A stretch of 64,000 nt of DNA from a virus: IMG/VR virus record IMGVR_UViG_3300045988_112440, one strand, 5' to 3'. The notes beneath the pieces are model-generated. The model had not been told where the DNA came from. It ran no database searches and worked only from the letters and a program-made list of their open reading frames with translations. The number at the start of each line of letters is the position of its first letter. Position 1 is the stretch's first letter. The translations under genes were made by a program, and so were the position numbers. Of the stretch, positions 26,671 to 57,902 are shown piece after piece.

Positions 26671-29431
26671 CCTCCTTGCTATTCATGTCAACCAACACAT
26701 CCTTGAAACGCTTGCCGTCATATTCAATATCGCCATTCTCATCCTGCACAAGAGAATGCACCATACCATTATGGCGTTCCAATAAACGTTTAATCAAAGT
26801 ATCATGGAACAACTCCCAGACGATTGCAATACTGGACGCATTCTTTTTACAAAGATCAAGCAGAATGTCGCAAAGCACATCGTCATTAGAACACTTATCG
26901 TGAAGATTGCGGAACATACTTTCCTGATACAGCGCAATTCGCTCCTTGCGGTCTGCGCCGGTTTCCTTATTATTATTTCCGTTACCAGAATGGATTGCGT
27001 TGCCACGAGCAAATCTCAAATAGTCCTTAAAGATAGAGCGGATGCCATAGTATTGAGAATTAGTGTATTCAACGCCATACTTGAGCGAATCATAATCAAA
27101 CTTGCGCTTTATCTTGAGTTCTTCCTCAAAATCCTCCAATTCATCCTCAACGGTCCAGCATAGGCGGTTCATAGTACAAGAGTTGATTCCGACCGGCATC
27201 CGATAAATGTAATACTGGATAACCATTTCATCCACGTCGTCCTTGACGGTCTTTTGCATAATCTCATCCAGACCGGCAAACCCATCCCACTTGATGCGCT
27301 TGCGAGCTGCGGCCACATACTGCTTATAATCACGCATCTGAGCAGGGTAGATGTAGCTCATAAAGTACGGCTTACGCCATGCGCAAATACTACTCCAAAA
27401 CTTCTTATCCTCGATAGTATCAGGATTATCATCGTCTTTAGCAGCACAAGCTTTGTTGTCATACCAATACTGCGGCATAGGTACGCAAGAAATTCCCTTT
27501 ATGCGATCAATTGTATCTTGTTGATATTTCTGGCCAGAAATAATACGATATGTAAGCTCTTTATATTCTCTACTTTCTGGCTCAAATTTACTCTGTACAT
27601 CAAACATTGTGGTGATACGATTGGTTACCTTGCCGATATCGTCACCAAATCCATTGATGTTAGATTCAATGAAATCCTGCTCGGTTGGAACTTTCTTTTC
27701 ACCTTTTTTCTGAGCGCAAAGAATTACAGTCTCGTTTCTCCATTTATCAAGGAGAATTCTATTGTCTGTACTGAAAATAAGATCGCCATCCCAATCCATT
27801 CCATCTAGTGCAGCACACGTATTATCAAACGCACTTACGATAGCCACCGTTTTAATGTAGCGATACCAATTCTTGCATTCATCACTCGAATTTAAATCTA
27901 AACACCGAATGTTTGCCATTTGACTCATCGGTGCTCTAAAGCAGGCTACCCGCTTAACATCGCGGTCGTTCCAGAATCGGCTGTAAACCTCTCCAGCTTT
28001 TAACAGTCCAGTAACTTCCATTCCAAAGATAGATTGACAAAGCGCATAAGGGTCTCCACTTGCCACTTGGAAATTCCCTCGTACTTTCACAACACCCGTT
28101 TTTGCTTGCGAAATTCGCTTTTTAATAAAGTACCGAATCCGATTCTGCACATAAGGGTCGTTAATCATTTCCGGCTCAATCATAAGAGCCTTAATATAGT
28201 CGTTTTCCAGACTGTTTATGTAATTCGGGTCATCACGCATTCCACTACCACGCAAATACAGCAACGCATCACGCCAGTCACCGCCCATGACGCCCTTGAT
28301 CTCATCCAAAGTTGGCTTCACGAGCTCATGTATCTCTTCGTTCGTAAGCTGATAGCTTTGAATAAACTGATAATTCAAGTTACGCTCTTCATCAAGCTCC
28401 AACTCACAAGTCTTTGTTACAGAGAAATGGTAGTGATTTTCCTGGCAATTCTCAAAGTAGTCCTCGCAACTATGATAACTATCCCACAACTTGAGCATCG
28501 ACCCTGTGAGAATCACCTGTACGCGATTAACATCCTTGTAGTTCCCCCAAATATCGCGTACCATGTTCTGTTTCGCTACCTTCTTAGCAAACTCGCGAAA
28601 AGGGAAAGGGAATAACATGCCTTTACAAAATGCGTTGCGTACACAAAAGCCAGATGCGGTGGATGGTAGCTTCAAATCCTCACTCCATTGCTGTGCGAGA
28701 TCGTAACTGATGAGTCCAAAACCGTCGCTTGCACAAAGCTCACAGTCCTGCTCAGGATTCTCCACCATTGTAGGTTCACCAGACACTCCGTCATCCAGAA
28801 CGATTACATGGTCTTTAAAATGCGTGAAACAATCATCTACAACAAGCACACCGTCAGGGTCAGTAACAGGAATAGATGCGGAGCAGGCGAGAGCCCTGTA
28901 GGCTTCTAGCTTTGCCGGAATGAACTCCATTCCTTTGTTACGGCCATTATCGATTCGCTTGCGGATCTCATCAATAAGACAGTCACTTACAAACACAATC
29001 GTGCTGTTCTTAACACCACCGGTAGTCCCAACCAAGCGGCGATATGTGATTCCATTGATTTTAAACCCCTTTGGAGAGCAAGCCCGGCGGTAATCATTCT
29101 TCTTATCTACTACCAGGCACATATAATCCGGCTTGAATTGAACTGCGTCCAGCTCAGTATACAGCCTCCGAATCTCCCGTCGGTTCTCTAAACAAGATGG
29201 CTCATTCCGCAACATTTTAATTCTACGCTTGATGCTCCGTGCCTTAGCCTCTGCGTCCGTAACACCATTCAACTCATCAATCCATCGTAGAACAGTGCTA
29301 TCAGCAAGCGAGATGATTTCGTGATTTCGTCTGGCTTCATCCAATGGTAGAGTTAAATCCCATTTTGTTTCAACTAGACGCTTCGTATGGATCTTAAAAA
29401 CAAACTTTTGGCAAGTTTGCTGCTTTGCCAT
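26648..29431 (-). CDS. single-subunit double-psi-beta-barrel RNA polymerase-like protein (YonO / cellular-RdRP-like)
   Basis: 927 aa; ...VACFRAPMSQMANIRCL..., then about 45-50 residues on, AALDGMDWDGDLIFS (DxDGD metal-binding loop). Confidence 0.6.
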   Translation of the reverse strand: MAKQQTCQKFVFKIHTKRLVETKWDLTLPLDEARRNHEIISLADSTVLRWIDELNGVTDAEAKARSIKRRIKMLRNEPSCLENRREIRRLYTELDAVQFKPDYMCLVVDKKNDYRRACSPKGFKINGITYRRLVGTTGGVKNSTIVFVSDCLIDEIRKRIDNGRNKGMEFIPAKLEAYRALACSASIPVTDPDGVLVVDDCFTHFKDHVIVLDDGVSGEPTMVENPEQDCELCASDGFGLISYDLAQQWSEDLKLPSTASGFCVRNAFCKGMLFPFPFREFAKKVAKQNMVRDIWGNYKDVNRVQVILTGSMLKLWDSYHSCEDYFENCQENHYHFSVTKTCELELDEERNLNYQFIQSYQLTNEEIHELVKPTLDEIKGVMGGDWRDALLYLRGSGMRDDPNYINSLENDYIKALMIEPEMINDPYVQNRIRYFIKKRISQAKTGVVKVRGNFQVASGDPYALCQSIFGMEVTGLLKAGEVYSRFWNDRDVKRVACFRAPMSQMANIRCLDLNSSDECKNWYRYIKTVAIVSAFDNTCAALDGMDWDGDLIFSTDNRILLDKWRNETVILCAQKKGEKKVPTEQDFIESNINGFGDDIGKVTNRITTMFDVQSKFEPESREYKELTYRIISGQKYQQDTIDRIKGISCVPMPQYWYDNKACAAKDDDNPDTIEDKKFWSSICAWRKPYFMSYIYPAQMRDYKQYVAAARKRIKWDGFAGLDEIMQKTVKDDVDEMVIQYYIYRMPVGINSCTMNRLCWTVEDELEDFEEELKIKRKFDYDSLKYGVEYTNSQYYGIRSIFKDYLRFARGNAIHSGNGNNNKETGADRKERIALYQESMFRNLHDKCSNDDVLCDILLDLCKKNASSIAIVWELFHDTLIKRLLERHNGMVHSLVQDENGDIEYDGKRFKDVLVDMNSKEDADDCIE

Positions 29432-29462
29432 TCGGCAGTCACCTCCATGTTCTTTTTGAACG

Positions 29463-29482
29463 TATCCTGTATTTTATAGCTA
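29463..29482 (+). promoter_or_regulatory. 20-nt conserved element copy 1 (TATCCTGTATTTTATAGCTA)
   Basis: One of 7 copies; sits about 15 nt upstream (gene sense) of the RBS of the RNAP-like gene. Confidence 0.6.
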
Positions 29483-32512: not shown

Positions 32513-32534
32513 ATTGCCTCCAGTTCTAATTTAG

Positions 32535-32740
32535 TTGTACTGACGAGTCTGTATTATATATATGTATGAAGATACATAGTCGTCAGTACAAGTACAACTA
32601 TCACAAAATATCTAATAATGGTTTACTCGACTTGAAGCTATGACGCGTAAGCGGCATAGATTCAATTTGAGTAAACCTACGAGCGTCCGCAGACGCGAGA
32701 TCCCTCTCCACCGTCGTAACGGTCCCTGTCCGGGAGGACT
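32535..32740. other. highly structured untranslated region (several stable hairpins with tetraloops)
   Basis: 12-bp stem TTGTACTGACGA/TCGTCAGTACAA (32535-32591). Nested hairpin GGTTTACTC..CTATG..CGC-GTAA-GCG..CATAG..GAGTAAACC (32620-32677). GCGTC-CGCA-GACGC (32683-32696). ACCGT-CGTA-ACGGT (32710-32723). Confidence 0.4.
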
Positions 32741-32773
32741 ACTATAAACATCCTCTTGCTATCTTCTTTACAG

Positions 32774-32793
32774 TATCCTGTATTGTATAGCTA
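32774..32793 (+). promoter_or_regulatory. 20-nt conserved element copy 2 (TATCCTGTATTGTATAGCTA)
   Basis: In the divergent control region; inverted relative to copy 3, which lies 38 nt away. Confidence 0.6.
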
Positions 32794-32831
32794 TCTACAC
32801 TCATTATACCATGAGATTGCCAAAAGTTCAA

Positions 32832-32851
32832 TAGCTACATAATACAGGATG
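32832..32851 (-). promoter_or_regulatory. 20-nt conserved element copy 3 (reverse complement CATCCTGTATTATGTAGCTA)
   Basis: Inverted partner of copy 2. Confidence 0.6.
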
Positions 32852-33782
32852 CGAGTATTTCTAGTGCCTATTATAATAAGGTATATTTTGGAGAGTATTG
32901 TTCTCTATAAATGACATTTAGATACTTTGTGTGTTCTGTGTAAGCTGCCAGAGGCTACAATTATGCTTATTAAATGTGTCTGGAGTCTCTAAGGGTGCTG
33001 CTCAGATGCCAGATCAGTCTATTTATGGCGATAGGGGAGTATGGATGAGCATAAATAGGTACTTTATACTCCGAAGAATGGTCATTTTCGGTACATTTTG
33101 GGTACACATCGGGAAAACCTGCATGAATCCTAGCTTTTTCGGATTTTATTGAGCTAAAAAGGAACAAAATAAGTGGTAAAAAGATACAAATAAAAAGAAA
33201 AACTAGCCAAAATATAACGAAAATACGTTAAATTCTAGCTAGTTACCGAATGAGCTACCGATTGAAAAATAGCGATTTTAAGCCATTTTTATGTATTTTG
33301 AGTGGAAAAATGAGTGATTTGTGAGTATGTGCAGGAGAGGGTATAGGGGTGTATTTTAGGATGATTTTGTCAGGGAAATGTACCCGGGTAGGAACAGGTT
33401 AAATAGTTAGATTGAGTTGATAGGATAGATAGAGGTTGTTGTGATTGAAAGAGAATGGTATTTTTGTGGAAATTGTTGTGCAGAATGTATAGAGAGCAAG
33501 AGAAGATGAAATTCATAATTGGTAATTATGAACAAGAAAGATGTACTGGGATCTCAGCCTGCTGCCTGGAATGTCTCAAAAATGAAAAGTATCCCCCATG
33601 GGGAAAAGCCGCTTTTGTGCAAAAAGCGGTATTTGCTTTAATTGAATAAAGTGCCTGTTTTGGCACTTTCCAGGCCGGGAATTATTCCTACTTTTCCGGT
33701 ATGTTTATAGCATTGATTTTTGCCAGGAATTGAATTTGCAAATTAGTTGCATTTTCGTCGTGTTCGATATCAAAATGATATC

Positions 33783-33826
33783 AAATGTTGCGTGTGCAAC
33801 ATTTTGTAAAGTATTTTTACTTTACA
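33783..33826. repeat. two adjacent perfect 9-bp hairpins
   Basis: AAATGTTGC-gtgt-GCAACATTT and TGTAAAGTA-tttt-TACTTTACA, back to back in AT-rich DNA. Confidence 0.7.
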
Positions 33827-33870
33827 TCAATTATGCTATTCTCTATATCTTGTATTCAATTCACAAAAAA

Positions 33871-33963
33871 CCACAATATCTAGTATCTATCTATATTGTT
33901 CAATATCGCACTATCCACAATATCTAGTATTCAACCATTCGTTCAAACCACAATATATAGTAT
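33871..33963 (+). repeat. three direct 16-nt iterons CCACAATAT(C/A)TAGTAT
   Basis: Copies at 33871, 33915 and 33948, so spacing is 44 and 33 bp (multiples of 11). Palindrome ATATTGTTCAATAT lies between copies 1 and 2. Confidence 0.7.
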
Positions 33964-34975
33964 TGCCGGGTACTGTTGTACCTATTAGAGTTTTGCCTGC
34001 CTAGGCGCACGCACGCGCGTGAACACGTTTCCGCGTGTTTCTTAAAATTCTTTAACTATTCGATCACAGCCTTGCCAAAATATAATTTTTAACGATATAT
34101 CGCTATTTTATAAAATCCTGGAATTCTTGCGTGTTTTGTCCATGCGTTTGCAACAAAAGTATATGTTCAACCATGGTAGAACGTGGTAAAGTATAGCCAC
34201 CGGAAGGCCGGAAGGCTTGAAGGGACGCACGGTCGGAAGGTGCGGAAAAGTTCCCCGATAAATCGTTTAAAAGCAAGCGGTCGTTCCCCGAACGGAAGGA
34301 GATGCAAAAGCAAATAGTACGGAACGGCGCTCATGCAAAATACCACGCCTAACAGGCGGGAGAGAGGATAGAACGGTTTTAGACGTGCACACAAAATAGC
34401 CCTTCAATCAATCGAACGGCTAAACAAATGGCACGGCGGGCAAGGCGGTCGGAATCCGTACTTGTTCAAATGGTTCACCTTGCAAAACAGGCCGGAACCG
34501 ATTCCAGATTGACAAAATGCGCTGGAAGGATAAAAACAATATAACCGTTTTGAAAGAATCCAAAACGCAAGTTTTGGCAACGTTTCAAACGCAAGCTATC
34601 AGTTTGTTACTTTTAGGCGGTACAATGCAATCTTGTATGATTGAGAAAACAGAATATTTTTGCAAAGATATGCAATTAGACGGCGCTGGACCTCAAAAGT
34701 TTGGCGCTTTTTGTTTGGACTTCAAAAGTTTGGACTTGTCGCAGATAATAGCAAAAATAGACAGTTTTCCGTGACAATTGAATAATAGCAAGCATGGTTG
34801 AAGGGCTGTTTTTGGCAGACAGAGGGTAAACCATGCTTTACAGTATACATATTTGCCCATCGTGGGCGAACCATAGGCTACAGGCAGAACCTGGAATTTT
34901 GTCTGTAGCACTTGGCTTGCTCATAATAGCAAGAAGTCCATACACACATTATAACACATAAAGGAGAAAAATACT

Positions 34976-35785
34976 ATGTCTACTACTACCATTCTGTCCG
35001 CTATCAACTTCAACGCTACCGCAGCCGCAGAGAAGAACCGCACCACCGGTGCAGCCGTTGCCCTTTTCAAGAAGGGCGGCAAGGAAGTCAACACCTCTGA
35101 GAAGGCCCTGGGCAGAGACTGCCTGAAGGGTATCACAGCAGAGCAGTACGAGACCTATTGCAAGGCCGTCCGTGCTGTCTATCTGGATGCTGATTTGCTG
35201 GCACGCTATGCCGCAGACGCGGACTCTGTTCAGAAGATTAAGACCTTCTACTTCAACGATCTGGCAAACCTTACCACCGCTATCATGGGCGATACCTTCA
35301 AAGTCAATGATGTCTTTGCAACCTTCACTGTTGAGCAGTTCATTGAGCAGAGCGTGGGCAAGGTGCGTGCATTCACCGCTACCACAGCAGGCCACGGCTA
35401 CGACACGGAAGCAGAATCTCAGACTAAGTTTGTCAAGTGGGTCGAAGCATGGTTTAGCGCCAACGCAAGCGGTGTTGCTATGCTCTCTATGGCAGAGCGT
35501 GACCGCCGTGCAAGTGTCCGCAAGCTGTCCTCTAAGGTTGTGCGCCTTACTAAGAGTGTCGAGAATGCAGAAGAAGTACTGTCCAGTGCTAAGAAGGAGC
35601 TGGACTCTCTCAAGAACAAGAAGGACACCAACGCAAAAACTCTGGAAAAGAAGATGAAGGCTGTTCAGGGCATGGAAAAGGATCTGGCAGACGTTAAGAA
35701 GAGCCTGGAATCTGCTCAGACTAAACTGGCAGACCTTCAGAGCAAGGACTTCACCAACGACTTCAGCGCAGAAGAAACCCTGTAA
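34976..35785 (+). CDS. hypothetical protein, first rightward gene; C-terminal Lys/Glu coiled coil
   Basis: 269 aa, AAGGAGA RBS; GC-richer, strongly biased codons like the capsid gene, suggesting high expression. Confidence 0.7.
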   Translation: MSTTTILSAINFNATAAAEKNRTTGAAVALFKKGGKEVNTSEKALGRDCLKGITAEQYETYCKAVRAVYLDADLLARYAADADSVQKIKTFYFNDLANLTTAIMGDTFKVNDVFATFTVEQFIEQSVGKVRAFTATTAGHGYDTEAESQTKFVKWVEAWFSANASGVAMLSMAERDRRASVRKLSSKVVRLTKSVENAEEVLSSAKKELDSLKNKKDTNAKTLEKKMKAVQGMEKDLADVKKSLESAQTKLADLQSKDFTNDFSAEETL

Positions 35786-35828
35786 TTAAACCACGCAACC
35801 ATCGTGAACACGCAAGAGCTCTACATAA

Positions 35829-35872
35829 ATGCTAGGCGATTAGTGGTACTAGGGAAGACGTAACCACTACCA
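35829..35872 (+). promoter_or_regulatory. 44-nt conserved intergenic hairpin element, copy 1
   Basis: ATGCTAGGCGATTAGTGGTACTAGGGAAGACGTAACCACTACCA; stem TAGTGGT/ACCACTA; 37/44 identical to copy 2, with compensatory changes. Confidence 0.6.
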
Positions 35873-35916
35873 ACACGGCAGTAATGCCGTCACTATCAAT
35901 CGAAAGAAGGGATACT

Positions 35917-36495
35917 ATGCAAAAGTTTCTGTGTAAGAACCATGCAGACCGTCAGATTAAGTTTGACGGTCATTCTGTGCCGTCTGGTGCATACTATGGT
36001 CAAACCGCAGAGGGATTGCGTTTTATCGCAATCGTCAGAGTGAATCAGATCGGTATGGTTTGGCGTTCTGGTAAAGGTTTGGTTCCGTGGGAGAAGTCTT
36101 ATAATCAGACTGTCGTTGACTTCATTAGAAGTGAACCTATCGGCGTAAATCCTGAGACTGTGCATTTTGATATGGCAGTGAAATCAGAACGCAAGAAGGC
36201 TGGACGTTATGCAGCACGTTTTGCTGGCACTGGGTCTGCTAGTGCAAATCGCAAGAGCAAGAAGGCAGCGAAACACACTAAGGCTTTCCGTACTCGCAAT
36301 GACTCCTTTACAGAAGAGTACAATAATGCCTCTAGCCTGATTTATGGGAAGACTGTCGAGATGAACGGACGACCTCAAAAGGTCTATGGTAAGATTGCAG
36401 AGTACATGGACGGCAGCGGGGTTGGAAAAATCCGTGGTGATATGCGTCCTCTTGAGCCTGTTTTTCCTGTACCTTCTGGCAGAAAGGCAAGGTGA
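35917..36495 (+). CDS. hypothetical protein with basic C-terminal half
   Basis: Start moved to ATG 35917 (AAGGGA RBS); 192 aa. Confidence 0.6.
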   Translation: MQKFLCKNHADRQIKFDGHSVPSGAYYGQTAEGLRFIAIVRVNQIGMVWRSGKGLVPWEKSYNQTVVDFIRSEPIGVNPETVHFDMAVKSERKKAGRYAARFAGTGSASANRKSKKAAKHTKAFRTRNDSFTEEYNNASSLIYGKTVEMNGRPQKVYGKIAEYMDGSGVGKIRGDMRPLEPVFPVPSGRKAR

Positions 36496-36498
36496 ATC

Positions 36499-36801
36499 AT
36501 GTCAGCAACTGTTTTGAGTGGTCAGAACTTGCGCAAGAGTGAAAAATTTGCTATAATTGCATCAAAAGGTGGTGCGACTATGGCAAGTAAGTACGACAAC
36601 ATGAGCAAAGAAGAGCTTGTTGCCGCTATGAAAGCGCGAAATAAATCTTATAAGTGGCAAAAGGCTTGTGTTCTTACTCCGGCAGAGGGTGAAAAGTTGG
36701 AAACTGAAATTCTTCCTCTTTATGGATGTATAAACGTGTCTCAGCTTGTTAAAAAAATTGTCAATGGTGAATTGATTGTTTCCTCGTCAGAATCCAACTA
36801 A
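36499..36801 (+). CDS. hypothetical protein
   Basis: 100-aa ORF; alternative start at 36580 behind an AAGGTGG RBS. Confidence 0.55.
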   Translation: MSATVLSGQNLRKSEKFAIIASKGGATMASKYDNMSKEELVAAMKARNKSYKWQKACVLTPAEGEKLETEILPLYGCINVSQLVKKIVNGELIVSSSESN

Positions 36802-36823
36802 TAAACCCCATAACCCTGGCAAC

Positions 36824-36858
36824 AACGTCTTGTGAATTTATCGCAAGGCGTTTTCTTT
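36824..36858 (+). terminator. rho-independent terminator
   Basis: 9-bp stem AACGTCTTG/CAAGGCGTT, then TTTTCTTT. Confidence 0.6.
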
Positions 36859-36929
36859 ATGCCTTGTTTTGTATAATTATGCAAATAATTTGCAGAATAT
36901 GTAAAATGAAAACAAAAAAGGAGAACACA

Positions 36930-37106
36930 ATGAAAGAATACGCAATCTTTGTTGCCTGTGAAGAGGATAAGGACCCCAATTTTGGTGGCCGTTACGTCCT
37001 CTACACGGAAGAGGAAGTGAATACCCTGGGTGGTCTGGACGCTGTTCTTGCCAAATTGAAGGCAGAAGGCGAGATCATCACCGGTATTCAGACTGGTGAA
37101 CAGTGA
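36930..37106 (+). CDS. hypothetical small protein
   Basis: Start moved to ATG 36930 behind an AAGGAGAA RBS; 58 aa. Confidence 0.55.
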   Translation: MKEYAIFVACEEDKDPNFGGRYVLYTEEEVNTLGGLDAVLAKLKAEGEIITGIQTGEQ

Positions 37107-37149
37107 AATCAAACACGTCAGAAAATCACATAAAAGAGGACTTTTAACA

Positions 37150-37407
37150 ATGAAAAACGATATCAATTTCGTTTCTATGATTCATCTGGCAGATACAGAT
37201 GGAAATCGGTTTGTAGCAATCTATAAGCCGATGTCAGAAGAAGAGCGTCAAGCGTTGCTTGAACGTTATTGGCAAGAGAATCGTTGGGGCACACGATTTG
37301 GAGCCCCTGATATTCTCGATGTGTTTCCGCTTGATGACTCATGTTTTCCGAATCAGTGGTTTGAAAACATGAGTGAATGCGAAAGAAACTCAAAATGCAG
37401 CTACTGA
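37150..37407 (+). CDS. hypothetical protein
   Basis: Start moved to ATG 37150 (AGAGGA RBS); 85 aa. Confidence 0.55.
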   Translation: MKNDINFVSMIHLADTDGNRFVAIYKPMSEEERQALLERYWQENRWGTRFGAPDILDVFPLDDSCFPNQWFENMSECERNSKCSY

Positions 37408-37538
37408 ATGAAAAATGCCGTGAAGTTAGTGGGCACGGGGAAGAAAGATCCCACTACCAGCCCAATAGGGTACGCAATAGCGTTGTAAAAAATGAATTTG
37501 CAAAGCCTGGTTTATCCTGGCAGAAAGGAAGTCTTGTT

Positions 37539-37661
37539 ATGAAATCGCTTCTCATGTTCTTTGGCTATTCTGCTTATCATGCAGAGTGCGTTGCACCTAT
37601 GATGTGGGCCTTTGTGATTTGTGCCATCGCTATTGGCGTGGCAGAGTGGAAAGGGTGGTGA
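37539..37661 (+). CDS. small hydrophobic peptide (40 aa)
   Basis: Internal Met of the track ORF 37377-37661, behind an AAGGAAG RBS; one TM helix. Confidence 0.35.
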   Translation: MKSLLMFFGYSAYHAECVAPMMWAFVICAIAIGVAEWKGW

Positions 37662-37665
37662 ACTA

Positions 37666-37875
37666 ATGTTTCGTAATGTAAAGAGCTTACGATTCATTGG
37701 AACGGATGACTTTCACCGTGAAGTATTTATCGATAAGTTCGGCACAGTATGGAAATACACAGAACCCGGTGAAATGCCGCAAGAACGGCATGACAAACTT
37801 TACACTTCATCCAGCAACAGCATGGATGGAGAACCAGAAGAACCGATGGCAGATGACCTCGATTACAAGATCTAA
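37666..37875 (+). CDS. hypothetical small protein
   Basis: Start moved to ATG 37666 (AGGGTGGTG RBS); 69 aa. Confidence 0.55.
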   Translation: MFRNVKSLRFIGTDDFHREVFIDKFGTVWKYTEPGEMPQERHDKLYTSSSNSMDGEPEEPMADDLDYKI

Positions 37876-37888
37876 AAGGAGAACTGTA

Positions 37889-38185
37889 ATGAACAGAGAA
37901 GATATTGATATCCTGGAAGTGGGCAATGCTTACACGGCACTGTTTTACAAGAAGAATCACTATCAGCCATACATTGTGGCGTGGCATTTTGACCCGGATT
38001 CCTACACATGGGATCAGGGTCATTATTTTTGTGACCTGAAATCCGCAAAGAAATTCTTTGCAGAGCAGGAGCGCAATAATGCAAATTGCAAGTATTGCGA
38101 AAAGCTTGATTGCCCTCACAGGGATTGCGTCAGACGATTACCCTATGAAAATGGTGGAATCCTTGCTTGTGAGAATCTTTGGTAA
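37889..38185 (+). CDS. hypothetical Cys-containing protein
   Basis: Start moved to ATG 37889 (AAGGAGAA RBS); 98 aa. Confidence 0.6.
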   Translation: MNREDIDILEVGNAYTALFYKKNHYQPYIVAWHFDPDSYTWDQGHYFCDLKSAKKFFAEQERNNANCKYCEKLDCPHRDCVRRLPYENGGILACENLW

Positions 38186-38191
38186 AGGAGA

Positions 38192-38383
38192 ATGAAAAGC
38201 ATGAAAAAGTATGTCATGTACGAATCGCTTGGAATGTGGTATATCACCACGGCAGAAAATCACAATCGTTATATTACGGATGCAAACAAAATCATCAAGT
38301 TGAGCCGTGACTTTGAGGAAGCGAAGGCCATTGTTGATTACAATTGGCACGGCTTTGATGATGTTGAGATCATTCAGAAATAA
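38192..38383 (+). CDS. hypothetical small protein
   Basis: 63 aa, AAGGAGA RBS. Confidence 0.55.
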   Translation: MKSMKKYVMYESLGMWYITTAENHNRYITDANKIIKLSRDFEEAKAIVDYNWHGFDDVEIIQK

Positions 38384-38409
38384 AAGATATGTTTTAAGGA
38401 GGGTTTGAT

Positions 38410-38667
38410 ATGACCGCAAGAGAATATTGCAAGAGCCATCCTGTAACTGCTTATGATAGCAGCTATGGCCGTTGTGGTGGTTTTCAGATTCATGGCGACG
38501 TTCAGTATGGCATTGATGATTATATCTATGCTCAGTCTGGCGTACTCATTGAAGATGAAAAGTATCACAGTTACCATCACTTGAAGATTATCTATGCACC
38601 GTCTGGCAGAGCATACGTCAAGTGTTTCGGTAAACGAATCTATCTTGATGAGTGCATGAGAGTGTAA
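38410..38667 (+). CDS. hypothetical small protein
   Basis: 85 aa, AAGGAGGG RBS. Confidence 0.6.
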   Translation: MTAREYCKSHPVTAYDSSYGRCGGFQIHGDVQYGIDDYIYAQSGVLIEDEKYHSYHHLKIIYAPSGRAYVKCFGKRIYLDECMRV

Positions 38668-38680
38668 AGGAGAACGCAAG

Positions 38681-38821
38681 ATGAAAAAGGGTCAGTGGTT
38701 TATGAACGATGAAACAGGTGTTATCACTAATATTCATCGTGAAGCTGTCGAGTGGTATCGGCAGGGTGCAAACATTTCCATCTGGATCAACGGCGTTATT
38801 GTTTGCCGTTGGGGTCATTGA
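38681..38821 (+). CDS. hypothetical small protein (46 aa, below track cutoff)
   Basis: ATG 38681 behind AAAGGAGAACGCAAG; the same RBS cassette precedes the next gene. Confidence 0.45.
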   Translation: MKKGQWFMNDETGVITNIHREAVEWYRQGANISIWINGVIVCRWGH

Positions 38822-38841
38822 TAAGAAAGGAGAACGCAAGA

Positions 38842-39171
38842 ATGCGTGCTACTGTTGAGGTTTACGAGAATAATGCAGGCGGTATCTTTGTTGCCGTCTT
38901 TGGTAAAAATGGCTTGAAAAAGCTGTTTGTTGTTACTCCTGATAATAATGAAACAAGAATGACGAGGGCATTCTATCAGGAAGCATTGTACGGATTCTCT
39001 GGTGTGGATGACTATAACGCAGCAGATTTTTCTGGTCTGTCTATGGATGATGCTTATATGGATATCTGCAGTGGCAACCTGATTGCAGAATTTTACGACA
39101 ATTGTGTTGTGAATCTGTATCCGGCAGACATGGGATCTGCTGGTATGAAATTATTTGGTTTGAAAGACTGA
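38842..39171 (+). CDS. hypothetical protein
   Basis: Start moved to ATG 38842 behind AAAGGAGAACGCAAGA; 109 aa. Confidence 0.6.
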   Translation: MRATVEVYENNAGGIFVAVFGKNGLKKLFVVTPDNNETRMTRAFYQEALYGFSGVDDYNAADFSGLSMDDAYMDICSGNLIAEFYDNCVVNLYPADMGSAGMKLFGLKD

Positions 39172-39187
39172 AAAGGAGATACATAAA

Positions 39188-39547
39188 ATGAAACTTACTC
39201 AGAATAAGCTGTCCGTCATCCTGGCTACTGTTGTGGCTGGTGTTTCCATTCTGGCAAACTGTATGACTGCAAACGCAGCAGAGCCTATGAAAACTCGCCT
39301 GAATAATCGTTATGTCCTGGCCGGTAGCGTGGATGAAATCGAAGTATTCCGCAACGGAATTAAGACCATCCATGTTATTGATGAGAACGGCGAGGAATGG
39401 CTGTATTCTTATGCAAGCATGGAAGAAACCCCGGCAGATGGTCAGAATGTGACCATGATTATGAACAGCAATGGAACAGAAACCATCTACGATGATACCA
39501 TCGAGGATGTTCTGTGGACACGGCCTGATGAAGTGGATGTTGATTGA
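39188..39547 (+). CDS. secreted protein (N-terminal signal peptide)
   Basis: 119 aa; MKLTQNKLSVILATVVAGVSILANCMTANA-AEP. Confidence 0.6.
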   Translation: MKLTQNKLSVILATVVAGVSILANCMTANAAEPMKTRLNNRYVLAGSVDEIEVFRNGIKTIHVIDENGEEWLYSYASMEETPADGQNVTMIMNSNGTETIYDDTIEDVLWTRPDEVDVD

Positions 39548-39624
39548 TATTCACAGAATGGTCACGAAAATAAAACGTATTAACGCATTAAAATGTGACG
39601 TTAATAAAATCTACATTTTAGTGC

Positions 39625-39653
39625 TTGACAAAATCGGCAGTATCCTGTATTCT
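39625..39653 (+). promoter_or_regulatory. sigma-70/sigma-A-type promoter TTGACA-17-TATTCT
   Basis: -35 at 39625-39630 and -10 at 39648-39653; the -10 and spacer overlap copy 4 of the 20-nt element. Confidence 0.55.
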
Positions 39654-39660
39654 ATAGCTA
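39641..39660 (+). promoter_or_regulatory. 20-nt conserved element copy 4 (TATCCTGTATTCTATAGCTA)
   Basis: Inverted relative to copy 5, which lies 39 nt downstream. Confidence 0.6.
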
Positions 39661-39699
39661 GAAAGGGCAGTCCGTCATAGGGCTTTTATTTTTACCATA

Positions 39700-39719
39700 T
39701 AGATATATAACACAGGATA
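39700..39719 (-). promoter_or_regulatory. 20-nt conserved element copy 5 (reverse complement TATCCTGTGTTATATATCTA)
   Basis: Ends about 10 nt before the RBS of 39742-40290. Confidence 0.6.
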
Positions 39720-39741
39720 CGCAAGAAAAGGAGATTTGACT

Positions 39742-40290
39742 ATGGCTATGTACAAAACTAAGAAGGATGCAGCTTACGCATGGGTTCATGAGTTTAATGC
39801 GATTCCTCAGAGCGTTATTGAAAAGCTCGCCAAGGTCGATTTGGAAGAGGATGGCGAAGGTATTACTGAAATCACGCCGCCGTCTTGTTGTGATCGTGTC
39901 TATATCTTTAGCGGTGACCACTATGGCGAAGATGGTGAGATTCAGAGCTACAACGAAGATGACAACACTTACAAAATTTGTCTCGATGGCACTGGCGAGG
40001 AAGTTGATGTTAGAGAAGATGATTTTGAAGTCGAGCGTGACGGCTTCCTTCCGATGTGGGGAACGATGTGGCAGTTTAATGACCCGTGTGATAACTGGTG
40101 GCTCGAAAATCATCTTCAGGAAATGGCAGATTGCGGATTCCGCATCTACGAGCAAGAAGATTACGGTTACATTTTTGGCATTGATGGTTGTGGCTACGAT
40201 TTTTACGAGGCTCATTGGATTCCGCTTTATGAAAAGCGTGGGTTCCATTGGGACGATGAGACTGTAAAGGAGATGGAAGAAAATGCGTAA
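39742..40290 (+). CDS. acidic hypothetical protein (LPMWGTMWQF motif)
   Basis: Start moved to ATG 39742 (AAGGAGA RBS); 182 aa. Confidence 0.6.
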   Translation: MAMYKTKKDAAYAWVHEFNAIPQSVIEKLAKVDLEEDGEGITEITPPSCCDRVYIFSGDHYGEDGEIQSYNEDDNTYKICLDGTGEEVDVREDDFEVERDGFLPMWGTMWQFNDPCDNWWLENHLQEMADCGFRIYEQEDYGYIFGIDGCGYDFYEAHWIPLYEKRGFHWDDETVKEMEENA

Positions 40291-40519
40291 GTACACTCAG
40301 AAAGAATTGAAGAATATGGTTACTCTTGGAATGGCAGAGGATGTTACACGTGCAAACGACGAAGATTATGAAAGAATCATCAAAAAAGAAGGGTTTCTTT
40401 CTCAAGTTGGATATTCTTCCGGTGTTTATGGTTGTAACGGAATGTTGTTAAGAGGTCATGAAACCGGTGTTTATTATGCTGTGACTTCAAGAACGTCTGC
40501 AATTTATCTTTTTGGTTAA
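40283..40519 (+). CDS. hypothetical protein
   Basis: 78 aa, AAGGAGA RBS, overlaps the upstream gene. Confidence 0.6.
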   Translation: MRKYTQKELKNMVTLGMAEDVTRANDEDYERIIKKEGFLSQVGYSSGVYGCNGMLLRGHETGVYYAVTSRTSAIYLFG

Positions 40520-40522
40520 GAG

Positions 40523-40771
40523 GTGAATATTTTGATTATTGATAGCATTCTTGATCGCCGGGATGGCAGACACTACAGCGCACATGACTTTTATCTTGAA
40601 GTTAGAAAGTATGAACGCCTGGGTGTTGGAACTCACGGTGAAGATATTTCGTTAGCGATGGATTACGGTGATAACCGTGATGTGCAGCGTGTCCTGTGTC
40701 AATACATTGACCGTAATGAATACAATCCATCTATTAAGGATTATATAAGAAGTCAGGAGTGGGTGTCATAA
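40523..40771 (+). CDS. hypothetical protein
   Basis: 82-aa ORF from a GTG start; TTG at 40532 behind GAGGTG is an alternative start. Confidence 0.5.
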   Translation: MNILIIDSILDRRDGRHYSAHDFYLEVRKYERLGVGTHGEDISLAMDYGDNRDVQRVLCQYIDRNEYNPSIKDYIRSQEWVS

Positions 40772-41085
40772 TGCCTTATAAATCTGAAAAAATAAAACTT
40801 TCAGAACAACAAGATAGAAGAGTAAAGATTACATCTGTAATGAAAGAAGAAATCCGAAAAAAATATTCTACTGGATTATTTAGCTTAATGGATTTGGCGA
40901 AAGAATATAACGTGAGTAAGAAATCTATTTTGCTTATAGTTAATCCAGAATCCAAAAAGAAAAACGATGATCACATCAAGAGTCACTGGAAAGATTATAA
41001 ACCGTCATTAGAAGAACGAAACAAAATCATGAAAGAACATAGGCATTATAAGCAGGAGCTATATTTGAAAGGAAAATTAAAATAA
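40771..41085 (+). CDS. small basic protein with helix-turn-helix-like segment
   Basis: Start ATG 40771; LMDLAKEYNVSKKSILLIV; markedly AT-richer than its neighbours. Confidence 0.5.
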   Translation: MPYKSEKIKLSEQQDRRVKITSVMKEEIRKKYSTGLFSLMDLAKEYNVSKKSILLIVNPESKKKNDDHIKSHWKDYKPSLEERNKIMKEHRHYKQELYLKGKLK

Positions 41086-41094
41086 TACGTTATT

Positions 41095-41138
41095 ATGCTA
41101 GATGATTGGCGGTACTAGGGCAGACATAACCGCTACCA
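41095..41138 (+). promoter_or_regulatory. 44-nt conserved intergenic hairpin element, copy 2
   Basis: ATGCTAGATGATTGGCGGTACTAGGGCAGACATAACCGCTACCA; stem TGGCGGT/ACCGCTA. Confidence 0.6.
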
Positions 41139-41177
41139 GAATGCGAAAACACAAAAATATTAAAAGGAGTGTTAAGT

Positions 41178-41558
41178 ATGGCTTATATCGGTAAAAAGGA
41201 CTTTCAGATGCTTGGAAAGATGTGGACGCAGATGCGAGATCACAATGGATATGTACCTGAAAGTATGTTTCTTGAGTTTTCTGATGTGATGCACAGAGTT
41301 TCGATAAATAACGATAAGGTTACTGAAAGAACTGTTAAAAAGATATATGAAGCTAGAGAGAAGGATAAGAATTATGGTCGCCGTCAGCAGAGATTTGTAA
41401 AGGCTTATCGGTGGGCATACGATTGTAAAGCAAAAGAGGCAGTGGAGATGTATAAGAAATATAGAGAAGAATCTCCTGAGAAGATTAACGAAGTTATTGA
41501 TTATTACGACAAGTGCCAGGAACAGTGTCGTCTTAAAAACGAAGAGAGTGACATCTAA
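41178..41558 (+). CDS. hypothetical protein
   Basis: Start ATG 41178 (AAGGAG RBS); 126 aa. Confidence 0.6.
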   Translation: MAYIGKKDFQMLGKMWTQMRDHNGYVPESMFLEFSDVMHRVSINNDKVTERTVKKIYEAREKDKNYGRRQQRFVKAYRWAYDCKAKEAVEMYKKYREESPEKINEVIDYYDKCQEQCRLKNEESDI

Positions 41559-42031: not shown

Positions 42032-42334
42032 ATGAAAACTGTATATGTTATTGCCGTAAAGCATTTATTCTACTACAAAGGAAACACTCTTAATCGTTGG
42101 GAGTATGTTCAATTTGATGAGTATGGGTACACATTTTTTACTGAATCCGTTGATGGTGCGCGGCACTTTTATTCTGTTGATGAGGCTCAAAAATGGTTTG
42201 ATAAAATCGGCCATGAACTTATCTTTTACGGAAAACGTAAAGGTCAGTATGATTTAGAGTCTCTTTGTATTAAGAGCGTTGTTTTCCGAGACCCTATTGT
42301 AAATTTTGTAAGAGATTTGGATTTCAAAAACTGA
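42032..42334 (+). CDS. hypothetical protein
   Basis: 100 aa, AGGAGA RBS. Confidence 0.6.
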   Translation: MKTVYVIAVKHLFYYKGNTLNRWEYVQFDEYGYTFFTESVDGARHFYSVDEAQKWFDKIGHELIFYGKRKGQYDLESLCIKSVVFRDPIVNFVRDLDFKN

Positions 42335-42371
42335 TAAAACAGATATTTTACAATGATTGACGAGGGGAAAT

Positions 42372-45093: not shown

Positions 45094-45315
45094 ATGTGGG
45101 ATTTAATTGAAAATGAATATTCTAAAAAATATGGAATTGGGTGCGCAACCTTTTTTCGTGACAAACAATTAAAAACAGCAATGGTTATGTATAAATATAA
45201 TGGCCGTAGCGTTATGTTTTGCTATTCCGAGTACGATAATAAGATTCTATCTGATGGTGATAAAGACGAAATTGAGATGACAATCAAAAAGAAACTCAAC
45301 TTTTGGAAGGATTAA
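45094..45315 (+). CDS. MWDL-family small protein, tandem copy 1
   Basis: MWDLIENEYSKKYGIGCA...VMYKY...; GAGGAG RBS. Confidence 0.6.
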   Translation: MWDLIENEYSKKYGIGCATFFRDKQLKTAMVMYKYNGRSVMFCYSEYDNKILSDGDKDEIEMTIKKKLNFWKD

Positions 45316-45317
45316 CT

Positions 45318-45554
45318 ATGTGGGATTTAATGGGTAACAATTATTCAGAAGTATACGGTATTGGATATGCTTTACTGAATGGAATTTCAGCTGGGTTTTA
45401 TGTGAGTGTCATGTACAAGGACCTTGGAGATGAAATTCACTTCTATTATCTTGATAATGCTCCTTACGGAGAACTTGATGATAATACCAAAAATAAAATT
45501 GAGGATATTATCCGTGATGACCTCAATAAGCGTCATATTTTTGGGGAGGACTGA
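45318..45554 (+). CDS. MWDL-family small protein, tandem copy 2
   Basis: MWDLMGNNYSEVYGIGYA...VMYKD... Confidence 0.6.
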   Translation: MWDLMGNNYSEVYGIGYALLNGISAGFYVSVMYKDLGDEIHFYYLDNAPYGELDDNTKNKIEDIIRDDLNKRHIFGED

Positions 45555-45556
45555 TT

Positions 45557-45820
45557 ATGTGGGATTTAATAATAAATAATTACCACGAAGAAGATGGAAC
45601 AGGTTGCGCCTTGATGTTCAACACAAGTGATAGGTGTTATCTTGATGTTATGTACAAGTGTAGGCCGTTACACAATTCAATTCGTGTTTTTTATTCTCTT
45701 AATATTTCAGAGAATGAAAAAGAGAATATCGAAGAAGCACTTGTAAAAGAACTGAGAAACAATGGAGTTTTAAGGAGCGATGATTATGTGGGACCTGAGG
45801 GAAGTTCACGCTTGTTTTGA
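45557..45820 (+). CDS. MWDL-family small protein, tandem copy 3
   Basis: MWDLIINNYHEEDGTGCA...VMYKC...; its 3' end overlaps copy 4 by about 35 nt. Confidence 0.6.
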   Translation: MWDLIINNYHEEDGTGCALMFNTSDRCYLDVMYKCRPLHNSIRVFYSLNISENEKENIEEALVKELRNNGVLRSDDYVGPEGSSRLF

Positions 45821-47972: not shown

Positions 47973-48251
47973 ATGAGTAAATTTAAAAATTTTCAGATTG
48001 GAGTAAAAGAAATTAGCAAAACATGGAATAGCGAAAATGTATTTTTTACGCAAATGCGTGACGGATATAGTGCTTCGTATAGACCAAAATATCCAGAATA
48101 TTGTAATGACGACATGATAATTCAGACATTAGAAGGGACAGGAGCAGTAAACCGTGGAGATTATGAATTGATAATTTTTGATGATGGAAAATTTACAAGC
48201 AAATATTTTAATGATACAGAAGAAATAAAAACGTATTTTGAAAACAGATAA
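47973..48251 (+). CDS. hypothetical protein
   Basis: 92 aa, AAGGAGAA RBS. Confidence 0.6.
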   Translation: MSKFKNFQIGVKEISKTWNSENVFFTQMRDGYSASYRPKYPEYCNDDMIIQTLEGTGAVNRGDYELIIFDDGKFTSKYFNDTEEIKTYFENR

Positions 48252-48277
48252 AAGAACGGTTTTAGGAGGAAAATAAA

Positions 48278-51522: not shown

Positions 51523-51568
51523 TAAAACAGTTCTTCTAAAAAAATGAAATACAAAGGAGTAAAACAAA

Positions 51569-54927: not shown

Positions 54928-54943
54928 TTTTAGGAGCGTGATT

Positions 54944-57884: not shown

Positions 57885-57902
57885 GATTTAGGAGGAATGA
57901 AT

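What the first reader, a model, noticed from the sequence alone, without database searches (positions are those of the whole stretch)
35829..41138. 44-nt intergenic hairpin present twice with compensatory stem substitutions
35829-35872 and 41095-41138 are 37/44 identical: ATGCTAG..GATT.G.GGTACTAGGG.AGAC.TAACC.CTACCA. The 7-bp stem is TAGTGGT/ACCACTA in one copy and TGGCGGT/ACCGCTA in the other. A T-A pair becomes C-G (a double change), and an A-T pair becomes G-T. A G-T pair is tolerated only as a G-U pair in + sense RNA, so the covariation points to a transcribed structured RNA. Both copies sit right after a stop codon and 45-50 nt before the next start, with no U-tract. The conserved 16-nt loop contains CTAGGG(A/C)AGAC.
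Basis: seen in the sequence. Interest (0 to 1): 0.65.

Follow-up and report, generated by a model that had tools for sequence, protein, structure and literature searches.

The report
Repeated RNA pseudoknot between phage genes
The reported "hairpin" is real, but it is a small RNA pseudoknot that occurs three times between early genes of an uncultured gut phage and is conserved in over a hundred related phage contigs; it matches no known RNA family and its function is unknown.

Summary
Positions 35829-35872 and 41095-41138 are 37/44 identical, where about 4e-6 such pairs are expected by chance. The 7-bp stem differs by one double change and one G·U.

The interpretation needs two corrections. 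First, the element is not a plain hairpin. Nucleotides 4-8 pair with the first five "loop" nucleotides (20-24), which makes an H-type pseudoknot. Second, the window holds a third, diverged copy at 37415-37459.

Across 43 distinct variants (206 instances, 132 loci), 7 of 12 pairs show changes on both sides and 93% of cells are paired. Wobbles are G·U in the + sense only, so this is + sense RNA.

Always conserved are the loop-3 motif GGNAGA and a CCA tail. A small hairpin, often with a GNRA tetraloop, usually follows. The copies sit in a fixed order in intercistronic gaps in the first ~6 kb of the early operon of an SPβ-like, YonO-polymerase-encoding phage of gut Clostridia. They commonly start 7 nt after a stop codon.

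There is no Rfam match. Function is not established. I favour an mRNA punctuation role (processing, stability or insulation) over nut/put-like antitermination or a translational operator.

The parts
35829..35872 (+). Pseudoknot copy 1 (slot 1). S1 is 35832-35835(36) with 35848(49)-35852. L1 is 35837-35840. S2 is 35841-35847 with 35863-35869. L3 (GGAAGACGTA) is 35853-35862. The CCA tail is 35870-35872.
   Evidence: 68.6 bits, E 5e-15; pair counts.
35875..35890 (+). Hairpin directly after copy 1: ACGGCA-GUAA-UGCCGU, a GNRA tetraloop with no U-tract.
   Evidence: Relatives have GAAA, GCAA or AAAAC loops on the same stem.
37415..37459 (+). Pseudoknot copy 3 (slot 2), diverged: ATGCCGTGAAGTTAGTGGGCACGGGGAAGAAAGATCCCACTACCA. 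S1 is 37418-37422 with 37434-37438. S2 is 37427-37433 with 37450-37456. L3 is 37439-37449. CCA is 37457-37459.
Evidence: There are 45 exact-pattern relatives in IMG/VR.
37461..37483 (+). Two small hairpins after copy 3: CCC-AAUA-GGG and ACGC-AAUA-GCGU.
   Evidence: conserved in relatives.
41095..41138 (+). Pseudoknot copy 2 (slot 3). S1 is 41098-41101 with 41115-41118. S2 is 41107-41113 with 41129-41135, with a G·U at 41108/41134. CCA is 41136-41138.
   Evidence: 63.2 bits.
34976..35785 (+). Gene A (269 aa, coiled-coil C-terminus, no family match), upstream of copy 1. The order gene A - pseudoknot - gene B is kept in relatives where gene A is only 22-24% identical.
35917..36495 (+). Gene B (192 aa, basic central region, no family or fold match), immediately downstream of copy 1.
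36824..36867 (+). Intrinsic terminator(s) about 1 kb downstream of copy 1. They are conserved in relatives, with compensatory variants.
37150..37407 (+). ORF whose TGA stop lies 7 nt before copy 3.
37539..37661 (+). 40-aa ORF with a Shine-Dalgarno sequence, downstream of copy 3. It is conserved in 42 loci.
40771..41085 (+). ORF whose TAA stop lies 9 nt before copy 2.
41178..41558 (+). 126-aa ORF with a strong Shine-Dalgarno sequence, 39 nt after copy 2.

Best explanation
WHAT IT IS (well supported). It is a 44-46-nt cis-acting RNA element in the + sense early polycistronic mRNA of an SPβ-like gut phage, and it folds as an H-type pseudoknot.
- Stem 1 is nt 4-8 paired with nt 20-24 (4-5 bp).
- Loop 1 is 4 nt.
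- Stem 2 is nt 13-19 paired with nt 35-41 (7 bp; 5 bp in one distant relative).
- No nucleotide separates the two stems, so they can stack.
- Loop 3 is 10-12 nt and carries an invariant GGNAGA.
- The 3' tail is an invariant CCA, usually followed at once by a 4-6-bp hairpin, often with a GNRA tetraloop.

HOW IT MOST LIKELY WORKS (inferred). It punctuates the early mRNA. It fills the spacer between the end of one unit (a stop codon or a terminator) and the ribosome-binding region of the next cistron. It stays folded next to terminating ribosomes. A host or phage factor probably recognises it through the invariant loop-3 and CCA nucleotides. The result would be defined and protected mRNA ends, or insulation of the downstream ribosome-binding site, giving the neighbouring early cistrons their own stability and expression. 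This is the job that RNase III sites do in the early mRNAs of T7 and SP82.
For: Structure:
- On 43 distinct variants, 93.4% of cells are paired, against 26-52% when partners are slid.
- 7 of 12 pairs change on both sides.
- The covariation score is 0.504, against at most 0.113 for slid partners, and 0 of 500 shuffles reach it.
- An eighth pair (4-24) changes from C-G to U-A in GenBank MT835676.1.
- The wobbles are G·U in the + sense.

Conservation exceeds that of the flanks. Between type A and type D phages the element keeps 34/44 nt, and 6 of the 10 changes are compensatory. Gene A is only 22-24% identical and gene B 42-44% identical.

Placement:
- All copies are co-directional with the genes and lie in the few large intercistronic gaps.
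- In 129 non-redundant contexts, 71 copies start 7-10 nt after the upstream stop codon (mode 7 nt, n=52).
- The next Shine-Dalgarno sequence plus start codon lies 21-79 nt after the CCA.
- A hairpin follows the CCA in 100 of 129 contexts.
- In L121 two copies flank a single 64-aa gene, and in L065 two copies flank gene A. This is gene-by-gene punctuation.
- In slot 3 the same element joins different upstream and downstream genes.
- In MT835676.1 one copy sits 13 nt after an intrinsic terminator, so it cannot act on that terminator. The gene A/gene B junction there holds a different stable hairpin instead.
Against: - There are no transcript-end data, so cleavage or protection is not shown.
- The copies are confined to the first ~6 kb of a gene array longer than 25 kb. 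A general stabiliser should be spread more widely, whereas promoter-proximal clustering suits an elongation-control signal.
- Conserved intrinsic terminators lie 0.55-1.1 kb downstream of slots 1 and 2. That layout also fits antitermination.
- The stems are too short for a classical RNase III substrate.
- Invariant single-stranded nucleotides indicate a specific partner, and that partner is unidentified. Flanking proteins have no family, PDB or fold match.
- Most sequences come from one IMG/VR study, so the number of independent evolutionary events is small, roughly 8-10 lineages.
Confidence: 0.35

Rival explanations
1. Processive antitermination signal, like lambda nut or HK022 put. The nascent pseudoknot, alone or with a phage early protein such as basic gene B, modifies host RNA polymerase so that it reads through the downstream early terminators.
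For: - The copies occur only in the promoter-proximal ~6 kb of the early region.
- In the window there is about one copy per candidate transcription unit.
- Slots 1 and 2 are followed by conserved strong intrinsic terminators at 0.55-1.1 kb.
- The copies are paralogous and differ by compensatory changes, as putL and putR do (own knowledge).
- The order gene A - pseudoknot - gene B recalls cro-nutR and nutL-N, and gene B has an Arg/Lys-rich centre.
Against: - L121 has two copies 286 nt apart in one unit.
- In MT835676.1 a copy lies 13 nt downstream of the terminator rather than upstream of it.
- No strong + strand terminator follows slot 3 for about 20 kb.
- The copies lie 0.5-1.4 kb from the candidate promoters.
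- No boxA-like conserved flank was found.
- No N-, Q- or NusG-like protein was detected.
Confidence: 0.2
2. Translational operator. A phage RNA-binding regulator binds the pseudoknot and spreads to, or blocks, the nearby ribosome-binding site of selected early genes, as gp32 does on the T4 gene 32 pseudoknot or RegA does on many early mRNAs.
For: - It is an H-type pseudoknot upstream of cistrons and is followed by A/U-rich sequence leading to the Shine-Dalgarno sequence.
- Invariant loop nucleotides suggest protein recognition.
- The same element precedes different genes.
Against: - The distance to the start codon varies from 21 to 79 nt, and an intervening hairpin is usually present.
- The spacing is tight to the upstream stop codon rather than to the downstream ribosome-binding site.
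- No candidate binding protein was identified.
Confidence: 0.15
3. Small ligand-sensing riboswitch aptamer of the H-type pseudoknot kind (preQ1-I, guanidine-III or SAM-II-like).
For: Its size and architecture are close to guanidine-III as I recall that RNA: 4-5 bp, then 7 bp, then a 10-nt purine-rich loop 3. Conserved nucleotides are concentrated in the loops and the junction.
Against: - No Rfam model matches, even at E<=10 on an 86-nt search.
- There is no expression platform: the Shine-Dalgarno sequence is not sequestered and there is no terminator.
- There are three or four copies per operon, before unrelated unknown genes.
Confidence: 0.05
4. DNA-level element: a promoter or hairpin promoter for the phage's YonO-like RNA polymerase, a repressor operator, or a recombination hotspot at module boundaries.
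For: - The phage encodes its own single-subunit polymerase, whose promoters are unknown.
- The element sits at mosaic junctions in slot 3.
Against: - Two interleaved helices covary, and the wobbles are allowed only on the + strand.
- The orientation is strictly co-directional with the genes.
- By analogy with SPβ, the YonO-type polymerase transcribes the late genes, which lie on the opposite strand.
- A different motif in the window, GTATCCTGTAT..TATAGCTA, behaves like the operator: it occurs in both orientations and at promoters.
Confidence: 0.03

Closest known systems
RNase III processing sites in the early mRNAs of coliphage T7 and Bacillus phage SP82 (own knowledge)
   Same: Several paralogous, conserved, structured elements sit in the intercistronic gaps of a phage early operon, in the sense orientation. 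They are not terminators.
   Different: Those sites are irregular hairpins of about 20 bp or more of double-stranded RNA. This element is an H-type pseudoknot with stems of 4-5 bp and 7 bp. Cleavage has not been shown here.
HK022 putL/putR and lambda nutL/nutR antitermination sites (own knowledge)
   Same: They are paralogous RNA elements in early transcripts that differ by compensatory changes. This element is about 65-75 nt if the following hairpin is counted. It lies upstream of early terminators in slots 1 and 2, and a GNRA-type hairpin is often adjacent.
   Different: put is two stem-loops and nut is boxA plus boxB; neither is a pseudoknot. No boxA was found here. There are up to four copies, and two can share one transcription unit. 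One copy lies just after a terminator.
Phage T4/T2 gene 32 mRNA pseudoknot, the gp32 autoregulatory operator (PMC535899, PMC3014915)
   Same: It is an H-type pseudoknot in a phage mRNA leader, upstream of an A/U-rich tract and a ribosome-binding site.
   Different: That pseudoknot is a single copy tied to one gene, whose own product binds it. Here there are 3-4 copies before unrelated genes, and the sequence is unrelated.
Pseudoknotted tRNA-like acceptor arms of plant-virus RNAs such as TYMV (own knowledge)
   Same: Two stacked pseudoknot helices (10-12 bp in total) have a 3' strand that runs directly into a conserved CCA.
   Different: Those structures are 3'-terminal and include T- and anticodon-arm mimics. 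Here the CCA is internal in the DNA and is followed by a hairpin. ARAGORN does not call the element tRNA-like.
Small pseudoknot riboswitches (preQ1-I, guanidine-III)
   Same: They have a similar size and similar H-type topology, with a purine-rich loop 3.
   Different: No covariance-model match was found. There is no expression platform, and the genomic context is different.

Membership tests
Any Rfam 15 family | Score at or above the family's gathering threshold | tested here: not met
   Only three tRNAs reach the threshold in the window. Nothing overlaps any copy at E<=10 in 35600-41400. On 35815-35900 the best hit is Tombus_3_IV at 14 bits against a gathering score of 33.
lambda-type nut site | Conserved single-stranded boxA next to a boxB hairpin (5-bp stem, GNRA-like loop) | tested here: not met
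   The flanks upstream and downstream differ between slots and between relatives, and no boxA-like block is present. A GNRA hairpin follows the CCA in only 54 of 129 contexts and is absent in 29.
lambda-type nut site | Lies between an early promoter and the terminator it overrides | tested here: inconclusive
   This is true for slots 1 and 2 in the window and its close relatives. It does not hold for the MT835676.1 copy, which lies 13 nt after the terminator, nor for the doubled copies in L121.
HK022 put RNA | Two adjacent stem-loops without a pseudoknot, immediately downstream of PL/PR | tested here: not met
   The architecture is an H-type pseudoknot plus a hairpin. The copies lie 0.5-1.4 kb from the candidate promoters.
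HK022 put RNA | Acts in cis on RNA polymerase to suppress termination | not testable with these tools
   This needs in vitro transcription.
RNase III processing site (T7 R sites, SP82) | About 20 bp or more of largely double-stranded stem | tested here: not met
   The stems are 7 bp and 4-5 bp, and the following hairpin is 4-6 bp.
RNase III processing site (T7 R sites, SP82) | Several copies in the intercistronic spacers of the early operon | tested here: met
   There are 3 copies in the window and 4 in L121, all in intercistronic gaps.
T4 gene 32-type operator | H-type pseudoknot upstream of the gene whose product binds it | tested here: inconclusive
   The H-type pseudoknot is met. The downstream genes differ between copies, and none is recognisable as an SSB or an RNA-binding protein.
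Pseudoknot riboswitches (preQ1-I, guanidine-III, SAM-II) | Aptamer consensus plus an expression platform that sequesters the Shine-Dalgarno sequence or forms a terminator | tested here: not met
   There are no covariance-model hits. The Shine-Dalgarno sequence lies 14-65 nt downstream and is free, and no U-tract is present.
tRNA-like structure | Acceptor-arm mimic ending in CCA | tested here: inconclusive
   The CCA is conserved (C42 and C43 at 90% or more, A44 invariant). It is kept even where the two outer pairs of stem 2 are lost, and the stacked helices total 10-12 bp. However, it is internal rather than 3'-terminal, and ARAGORN does not detect it.
Self-cleaving ribozymes (pistol, twister, hammerhead, HDV-like) | Family consensus and topology | tested here: not met
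   There are no Rfam hits. The topology a-b-a'-b' with no nucleotide between b and a' does not fit the HDV-like or pistol layouts (own knowledge of those folds).
SPBRE/MrpR-type repressor operator of SPβ phages | Short double-stranded DNA motif in promoter regions | tested here: not met
   The element is strand-specific and covaries as RNA. A different motif in the window fits the operator description better.

The most novel reading that the evidence does not exclude
The pseudoknot is a mimic of a tRNA acceptor arm. Two stacked helices of 10-12 bp have a 3' strand that runs straight into an invariant CCA. Under this reading, the phage uses the host tRNA-maturation machinery to cut and cap its early polycistronic mRNA. 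RNase P would cut on the 5' side, and exonucleases would trim back to the CCA, which the CCA-adding enzyme would then maintain. Each upstream cistron would end in a tRNA-like "telomere", and each downstream cistron would begin with a protective tetraloop hairpin. This would be a bacterial-virus counterpart of mitochondrial tRNA punctuation.
Probability: 0.07. Interest if true: 0.85.

Novelty: new variant of a known kind. Interest (0 to 1): 0.55.

Why it matters
Repeated structured signals in phage early transcripts (nut, put, RNase III sites) have been the entry points to major mechanisms of transcription elongation control and mRNA processing. All of those examples come from a few model phages.

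This element is a compact pseudoknot with strong covariation. It has invariant loop and CCA nucleotides, and its position next to stop codons is precise. It is found in a clade of roughly 130-kb SPβ-like phages of human-gut Clostridia, which also carry a YonO-type RNA polymerase and amber recoding.

It gives a defined 45-nt handle for asking how early gene expression is organised in these uncultured phages. If it turns out to be a nuclease-resistant or polymerase-modifying module, it could also serve as a portable RNA part.

It may already be among the unnamed candidates in large IMG/VR structured-RNA catalogues (PMC10690425). I could not check this.

Tried and rejected
1. Known RNA families. 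Rfam found nothing at the gathering threshold, nor at E<=10 on 5.8 kb and on 86 nt.
2. Mini-ORF. ATG CTA GGY GAY TAR (MLGD*) lies inside the 5' part, but ACG and ATA variants, the slot-2 sequence (ATG CCG TGA) and the lack of a Shine-Dalgarno sequence argue against it.
3. Stop-codon readthrough or frameshift stimulator. The 7-10-nt spacing is suggestive. However, in-frame readthrough in slot 3 meets a stop after 5 codons, there is no slippery site, and slots 1 and C lie about 40 nt from the stop.
4. A third helix, nt 1-3 with nt 31-33. It is only partly supported and is sterically incompatible with the pseudoknot, so I dropped it.
5. Extension G7G8 with C42C43. It is consistent but shows only one-sided changes and two mismatches, so I did not claim it.
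6. Promoter for host sigma-70-type polymerase at or just upstream of the element. No -10/-35 fit was found.
7. Partner protein. Genes A and B and ten neighbouring ORFs have no Pfam, PHROG or PDB match. The AlphaFold model of gene B is poor (pLDDT 61), and Foldseek gives nothing better than E 0.7.
8. Cultured relatives. There is no copy in Enterocloster phage PMBT24. blastn against GenBank phages finds only the uncultured contig MT835676.1.
9. Host or prophage. The 19-nt core has no exact match in 185,579 representative genomes.
10. Supplementary tables of Fremin et al. 2023 are not held, so I could not look for the motif there.

Full report
OBSERVATION

The two 44-mers are at the stated coordinates and share 37/44 positions. 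From the window's base composition, about 4e-6 such pairs are expected by chance in 64 kb on both strands.

Small corrections apply.
- The loop is 15 nt.
- Copy 1 begins 43 nt after its upstream TAA stop, and copy 2 begins 9 nt after its upstream TAA stop.
- The next start codons are 44 and 39 nt downstream.
- Neither sequence folds better than its dinucleotide shuffles (z = -0.6 and -0.07). Any claim of structure therefore has to rest on comparison between sequences.

WHAT THE WINDOW IS

The window is a phage.
- The minus-strand half carries a tape-measure protein (3294-6461), a terminase, three tRNAs and a 927-aa protein (26648-29431).
- That 927-aa protein matches Pfam RdRP (E 7.5e-15). By tblastn it is 26% identical to SPβ YonO and 38-40% identical to homologues in Clostridium phage c-st and in Enterocloster phages.
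- YonO is the single-subunit, multisubunit-like RNA polymerase that transcribes the SPβ late operon (PMC5467207).
- The plus-strand half, from about 34.9 kb, is a tight array of small genes with strong Shine-Dalgarno sequences. I take this to be the early region read by the host polymerase. That is an inference from the SPβ analogy.
- Related contigs are 70-140 kb and come from human-gut samples.

RELATIVES AND THE REAL FOLD

About 95 of these carry the whole element.

Their stems add new compensated states. TAAGGGT/ACCCTTA changes two pairs on both sides. Wobble intermediates such as TAGTGGT/ACCGCTA also occur.

A covariance model built from these sequences found a weak third copy in the window at 37415-37459 (8.2 bits). 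It also found 28-40-bit variants in relatives.

Reading these variants showed that the 5' half of the "conserved loop" is not single-stranded. Nucleotides 20-24 are complementary to nucleotides 4-8 of the 5' flank, and this complementarity is kept in the same register while the sequence changes:
- CUAG/CUAG in the two reported copies
- CCUG/CAGG in the type D variants
- CCGUG/CACGG in the window's third copy
- CCGUG/CAUGG, CUGUG/CACGG and CCGUG/UACGG as G·U intermediates
- UCGG/CCGA in GenBank MT835676.1

On 43 distinct variants (206 instances in 132 loci) the two-helix model gives these figures:
- 93.4% of cells are paired, against 26-52% when the 3' partners are slid by 1-3 columns.
- 7 of 12 pairs have changes on both sides.
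- The covariation score is 0.504 against at most 0.113 for slid partners, and 0 of 500 column shuffles reach it.

Stem-2 pair 16-38 occurs as C-G, U-A, G-C and A-U. The departures from Watson-Crick pairing are almost all G·U in the + sense, and one is C·A. The structure is therefore an H-type pseudoknot in + sense RNA.

The layout is as follows:
- stem 1, 4-5 bp
- loop 1, 4 nt
- stem 2, 7 bp
- no nucleotide between the stems
- loop 3, 10-12 nt with an invariant GGNAGA
- an invariant CCA tail

The CCA is retained even in MT835676.1, where the two outer pairs of stem 2 are lost.

One caveat applies. Most sequences come from one study and are closely related, so the number of independent substitution events is perhaps eight to ten.

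COPIES AND PLACEMENT

With the improved model and filters off, the window has exactly three copies: 35829, 37415 and 41095.

Relatives keep the same order and orientation:
- slot 1 (type A or D), between gene A and gene B
- slot 2, about 1.2-1.6 kb further on
- slot 3, a further 3.6-4.2 kb on

A more distant 133-kb contig (L121, gene B 49% identical) has four copies, two of which flank a 64-aa gene. In L065 two copies flank gene A.

In 129 non-redundant contexts:
- The element starts 7-10 nt after the stop codon of the upstream ORF in 71 cases, with a sharp mode of 7 nt (n=52).
- The next Shine-Dalgarno sequence plus start codon is 21-79 nt after the CCA.
- A small hairpin follows the CCA within 0-3 nt in 100 cases. 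Its loops are GAAA (43), AAUA (22), AAAA(C) (17), GCAA (7) and GUAA (4).

Between type A and type D phages the element keeps 34/44 nt, with 6 of the 10 changes compensatory. Gene A has fallen to 22-24% identity and gene B to 42-44% identity.

In slot 3 the same element joins different upstream and downstream genes.

The element is absent from Enterocloster phage PMBT24. It is absent from all other GenBank phages at blastn sensitivity, apart from the uncultured faecal contig MT835676.1. Its 19-nt core is absent from representative bacterial genomes.

WHAT IT IS NOT

- It is not any Rfam family.
- It is not a terminator, because there is no U-tract.
- It is not a riboswitch in any usual sense, because it has no expression platform.
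- It is not a frameshift or readthrough signal, because there is no slippery site and an in-frame stop follows 5 codons later in slot 3.
- It is not a coding mini-ORF.
- It is not a DNA operator. A different motif in the window, GTATCCTGTAT..TATAGCTA, occurs in both orientations, overlaps a TTGACA-17-TATTCT promoter and lies next to a weakly MrpR-like gene. That motif looks like the counterpart of the SPβ SPBRE operator.

MECHANISM

Nothing here measures function, so this part is inference.

Two readings fit best.

(a) Punctuation of the early polycistronic mRNA. In this reading the element is a compact fold that resists nucleases and helicases. It sits immediately after the end of one unit and ahead of the next ribosome-binding region. 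A factor recognises it through GGNAGA and CCA, and it defines or protects mRNA ends or insulates the downstream ribosome-binding site. This is functionally like the RNase III sites of the T7 and SP82 early mRNAs.

(b) A nut/put-like elongation-control signal.

Evidence favouring (a):
- The tight spacing to stop codons: stem 1 begins about 10 nt after the stop, just outside the footprint of a terminating ribosome (own knowledge of ribosome footprints).
- Copies that bracket single genes.
- Independence from the identity of the flanking genes.
- The copy in MT835676.1 that lies 13 nt downstream of the conserved terminator.
- The replacement of the slot-1 element by an unrelated stable hairpin in that phage.

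Evidence favouring (b):
- The confinement of all copies to the promoter-proximal ~6 kb.
- The conserved strong terminators 0.55-1.1 kb after slots 1 and 2.

I put (a) at 0.35 and (b) at 0.2. A translational operator gets 0.15, a riboswitch 0.05 and a DNA-level role 0.03. The remainder is for something not listed.

The most novel reading not excluded is a tRNA-acceptor-like pseudoknot: 10-12 stacked base pairs running into CCA, serving RNase P and the CCA-maintenance machinery as an mRNA punctuation mark. I give it 0.07.

NOVELTY AND VERDICT

The finding is real and better than described. It is a new, well-supported pseudoknot RNA family, so far restricted to a clade of uncultured SPβ-like gut phages.

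It belongs to the known general kind of repeated structured signals in phage early transcripts, but its architecture differs from nut, put and RNase III sites. It may already sit unnamed in the IMG/VR catalogue of 10,006 candidate structured RNAs (PMC10690425); I could not check this.

Interest is moderate at 0.55. The structure is solid and the placement is intriguing, but the function is unknown and no cultured system is available.

Noticed in passing
window 18803-20659 (-) and 22346-22422 (-): The terminase large-subunit frame has an in-frame TAG just before its Walker A motif (…NASHVL*ACSRNFGKSFVG…), and the phage encodes a suppressor tRNA with anticodon CUA. This points to amber recoding of a late gene. 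TAG is also rare as the stop of ORFs upstream of the pseudoknots (3 of 126). Other frames with an internal TAG are 11628-12665 (-) and 7148-8236 (-).
   Followed up: partly
window 26648-29431 (-): A 927-aa YonO-like single-subunit RNA polymerase (Pfam RdRP E 7.5e-15; 26% identical to SPβ YonO, about 39% to Clostridium phage c-st and Enterocloster phage homologues). It lies upstream of the late structural genes, as in SPβ.
   Followed up: partly
window 29451-29482, 32762-32793, 39629-39660, 61704-61735 (+); inverted copies at 39685-39720 and 63190-63225: The motif GTATCCTGTAT(T)nTATAGCTA occurs in both orientations. It overlaps a TTGACA-17-TATTCT promoter-like site at 39625-39653 and flanks small terminator-like hairpins. 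The ORF at 62243-63169 has a weak MrpR N-terminal domain hit (E 5e-4). This is probably the counterpart of the SPβ SPBRE/MrpR repressor-operator system.
   Followed up: partly
window 32513-34975: An ORF-poor stretch of about 2.4 kb lies between the divergent late and early gene blocks. It has + strand terminator-like hairpins at 33608-33630 and 34682-34708. The same gap exists in relative L121 (7061-9040). It may encode non-coding RNA(s) or hold control regions.
   Followed up: no
window ~34744, ~34783, ~34922: Three direct copies of ATAATAGCAA lie within 180 bp upstream of gene A. They could be repeated -10-like elements or a binding-site array.
   Followed up: no
window 42321-42353, 48235-48272, 51509-51541, 54911-54947, 57869-57898, 58276-58305, 60366-60410: A recurrent TGATAAAA-N8-10-(T)TTTAGGAGG block lies immediately before several + strand genes. 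These may be extended -10-type (middle?) promoters with very short leaders.
   Followed up: no
window 59627-60379, 58311-59087, 53393-54238 (+): An RlaP-family (RNA-repair-associated, Pol-beta-type) nucleotidyltransferase, a protein with a GmrSD N-terminal domain, and a tyrosine-recombinase-family protein lie in the early/middle region.
   Followed up: no
window 45094-45820 (+): Three tandem paralogous small genes (about 73-87 aa, all starting MWDLI/M…) share similar ribosome-binding regions.
   Followed up: no
L159 (GenBank MT835676.1) 6877-6987: In this distant syntenic relative the gene A/gene B junction carries a different structure, CCCCUAC…ACGCC-UUGACGU-GGCGU…GUAGGGG, instead of the pseudoknot.
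   Followed up: no
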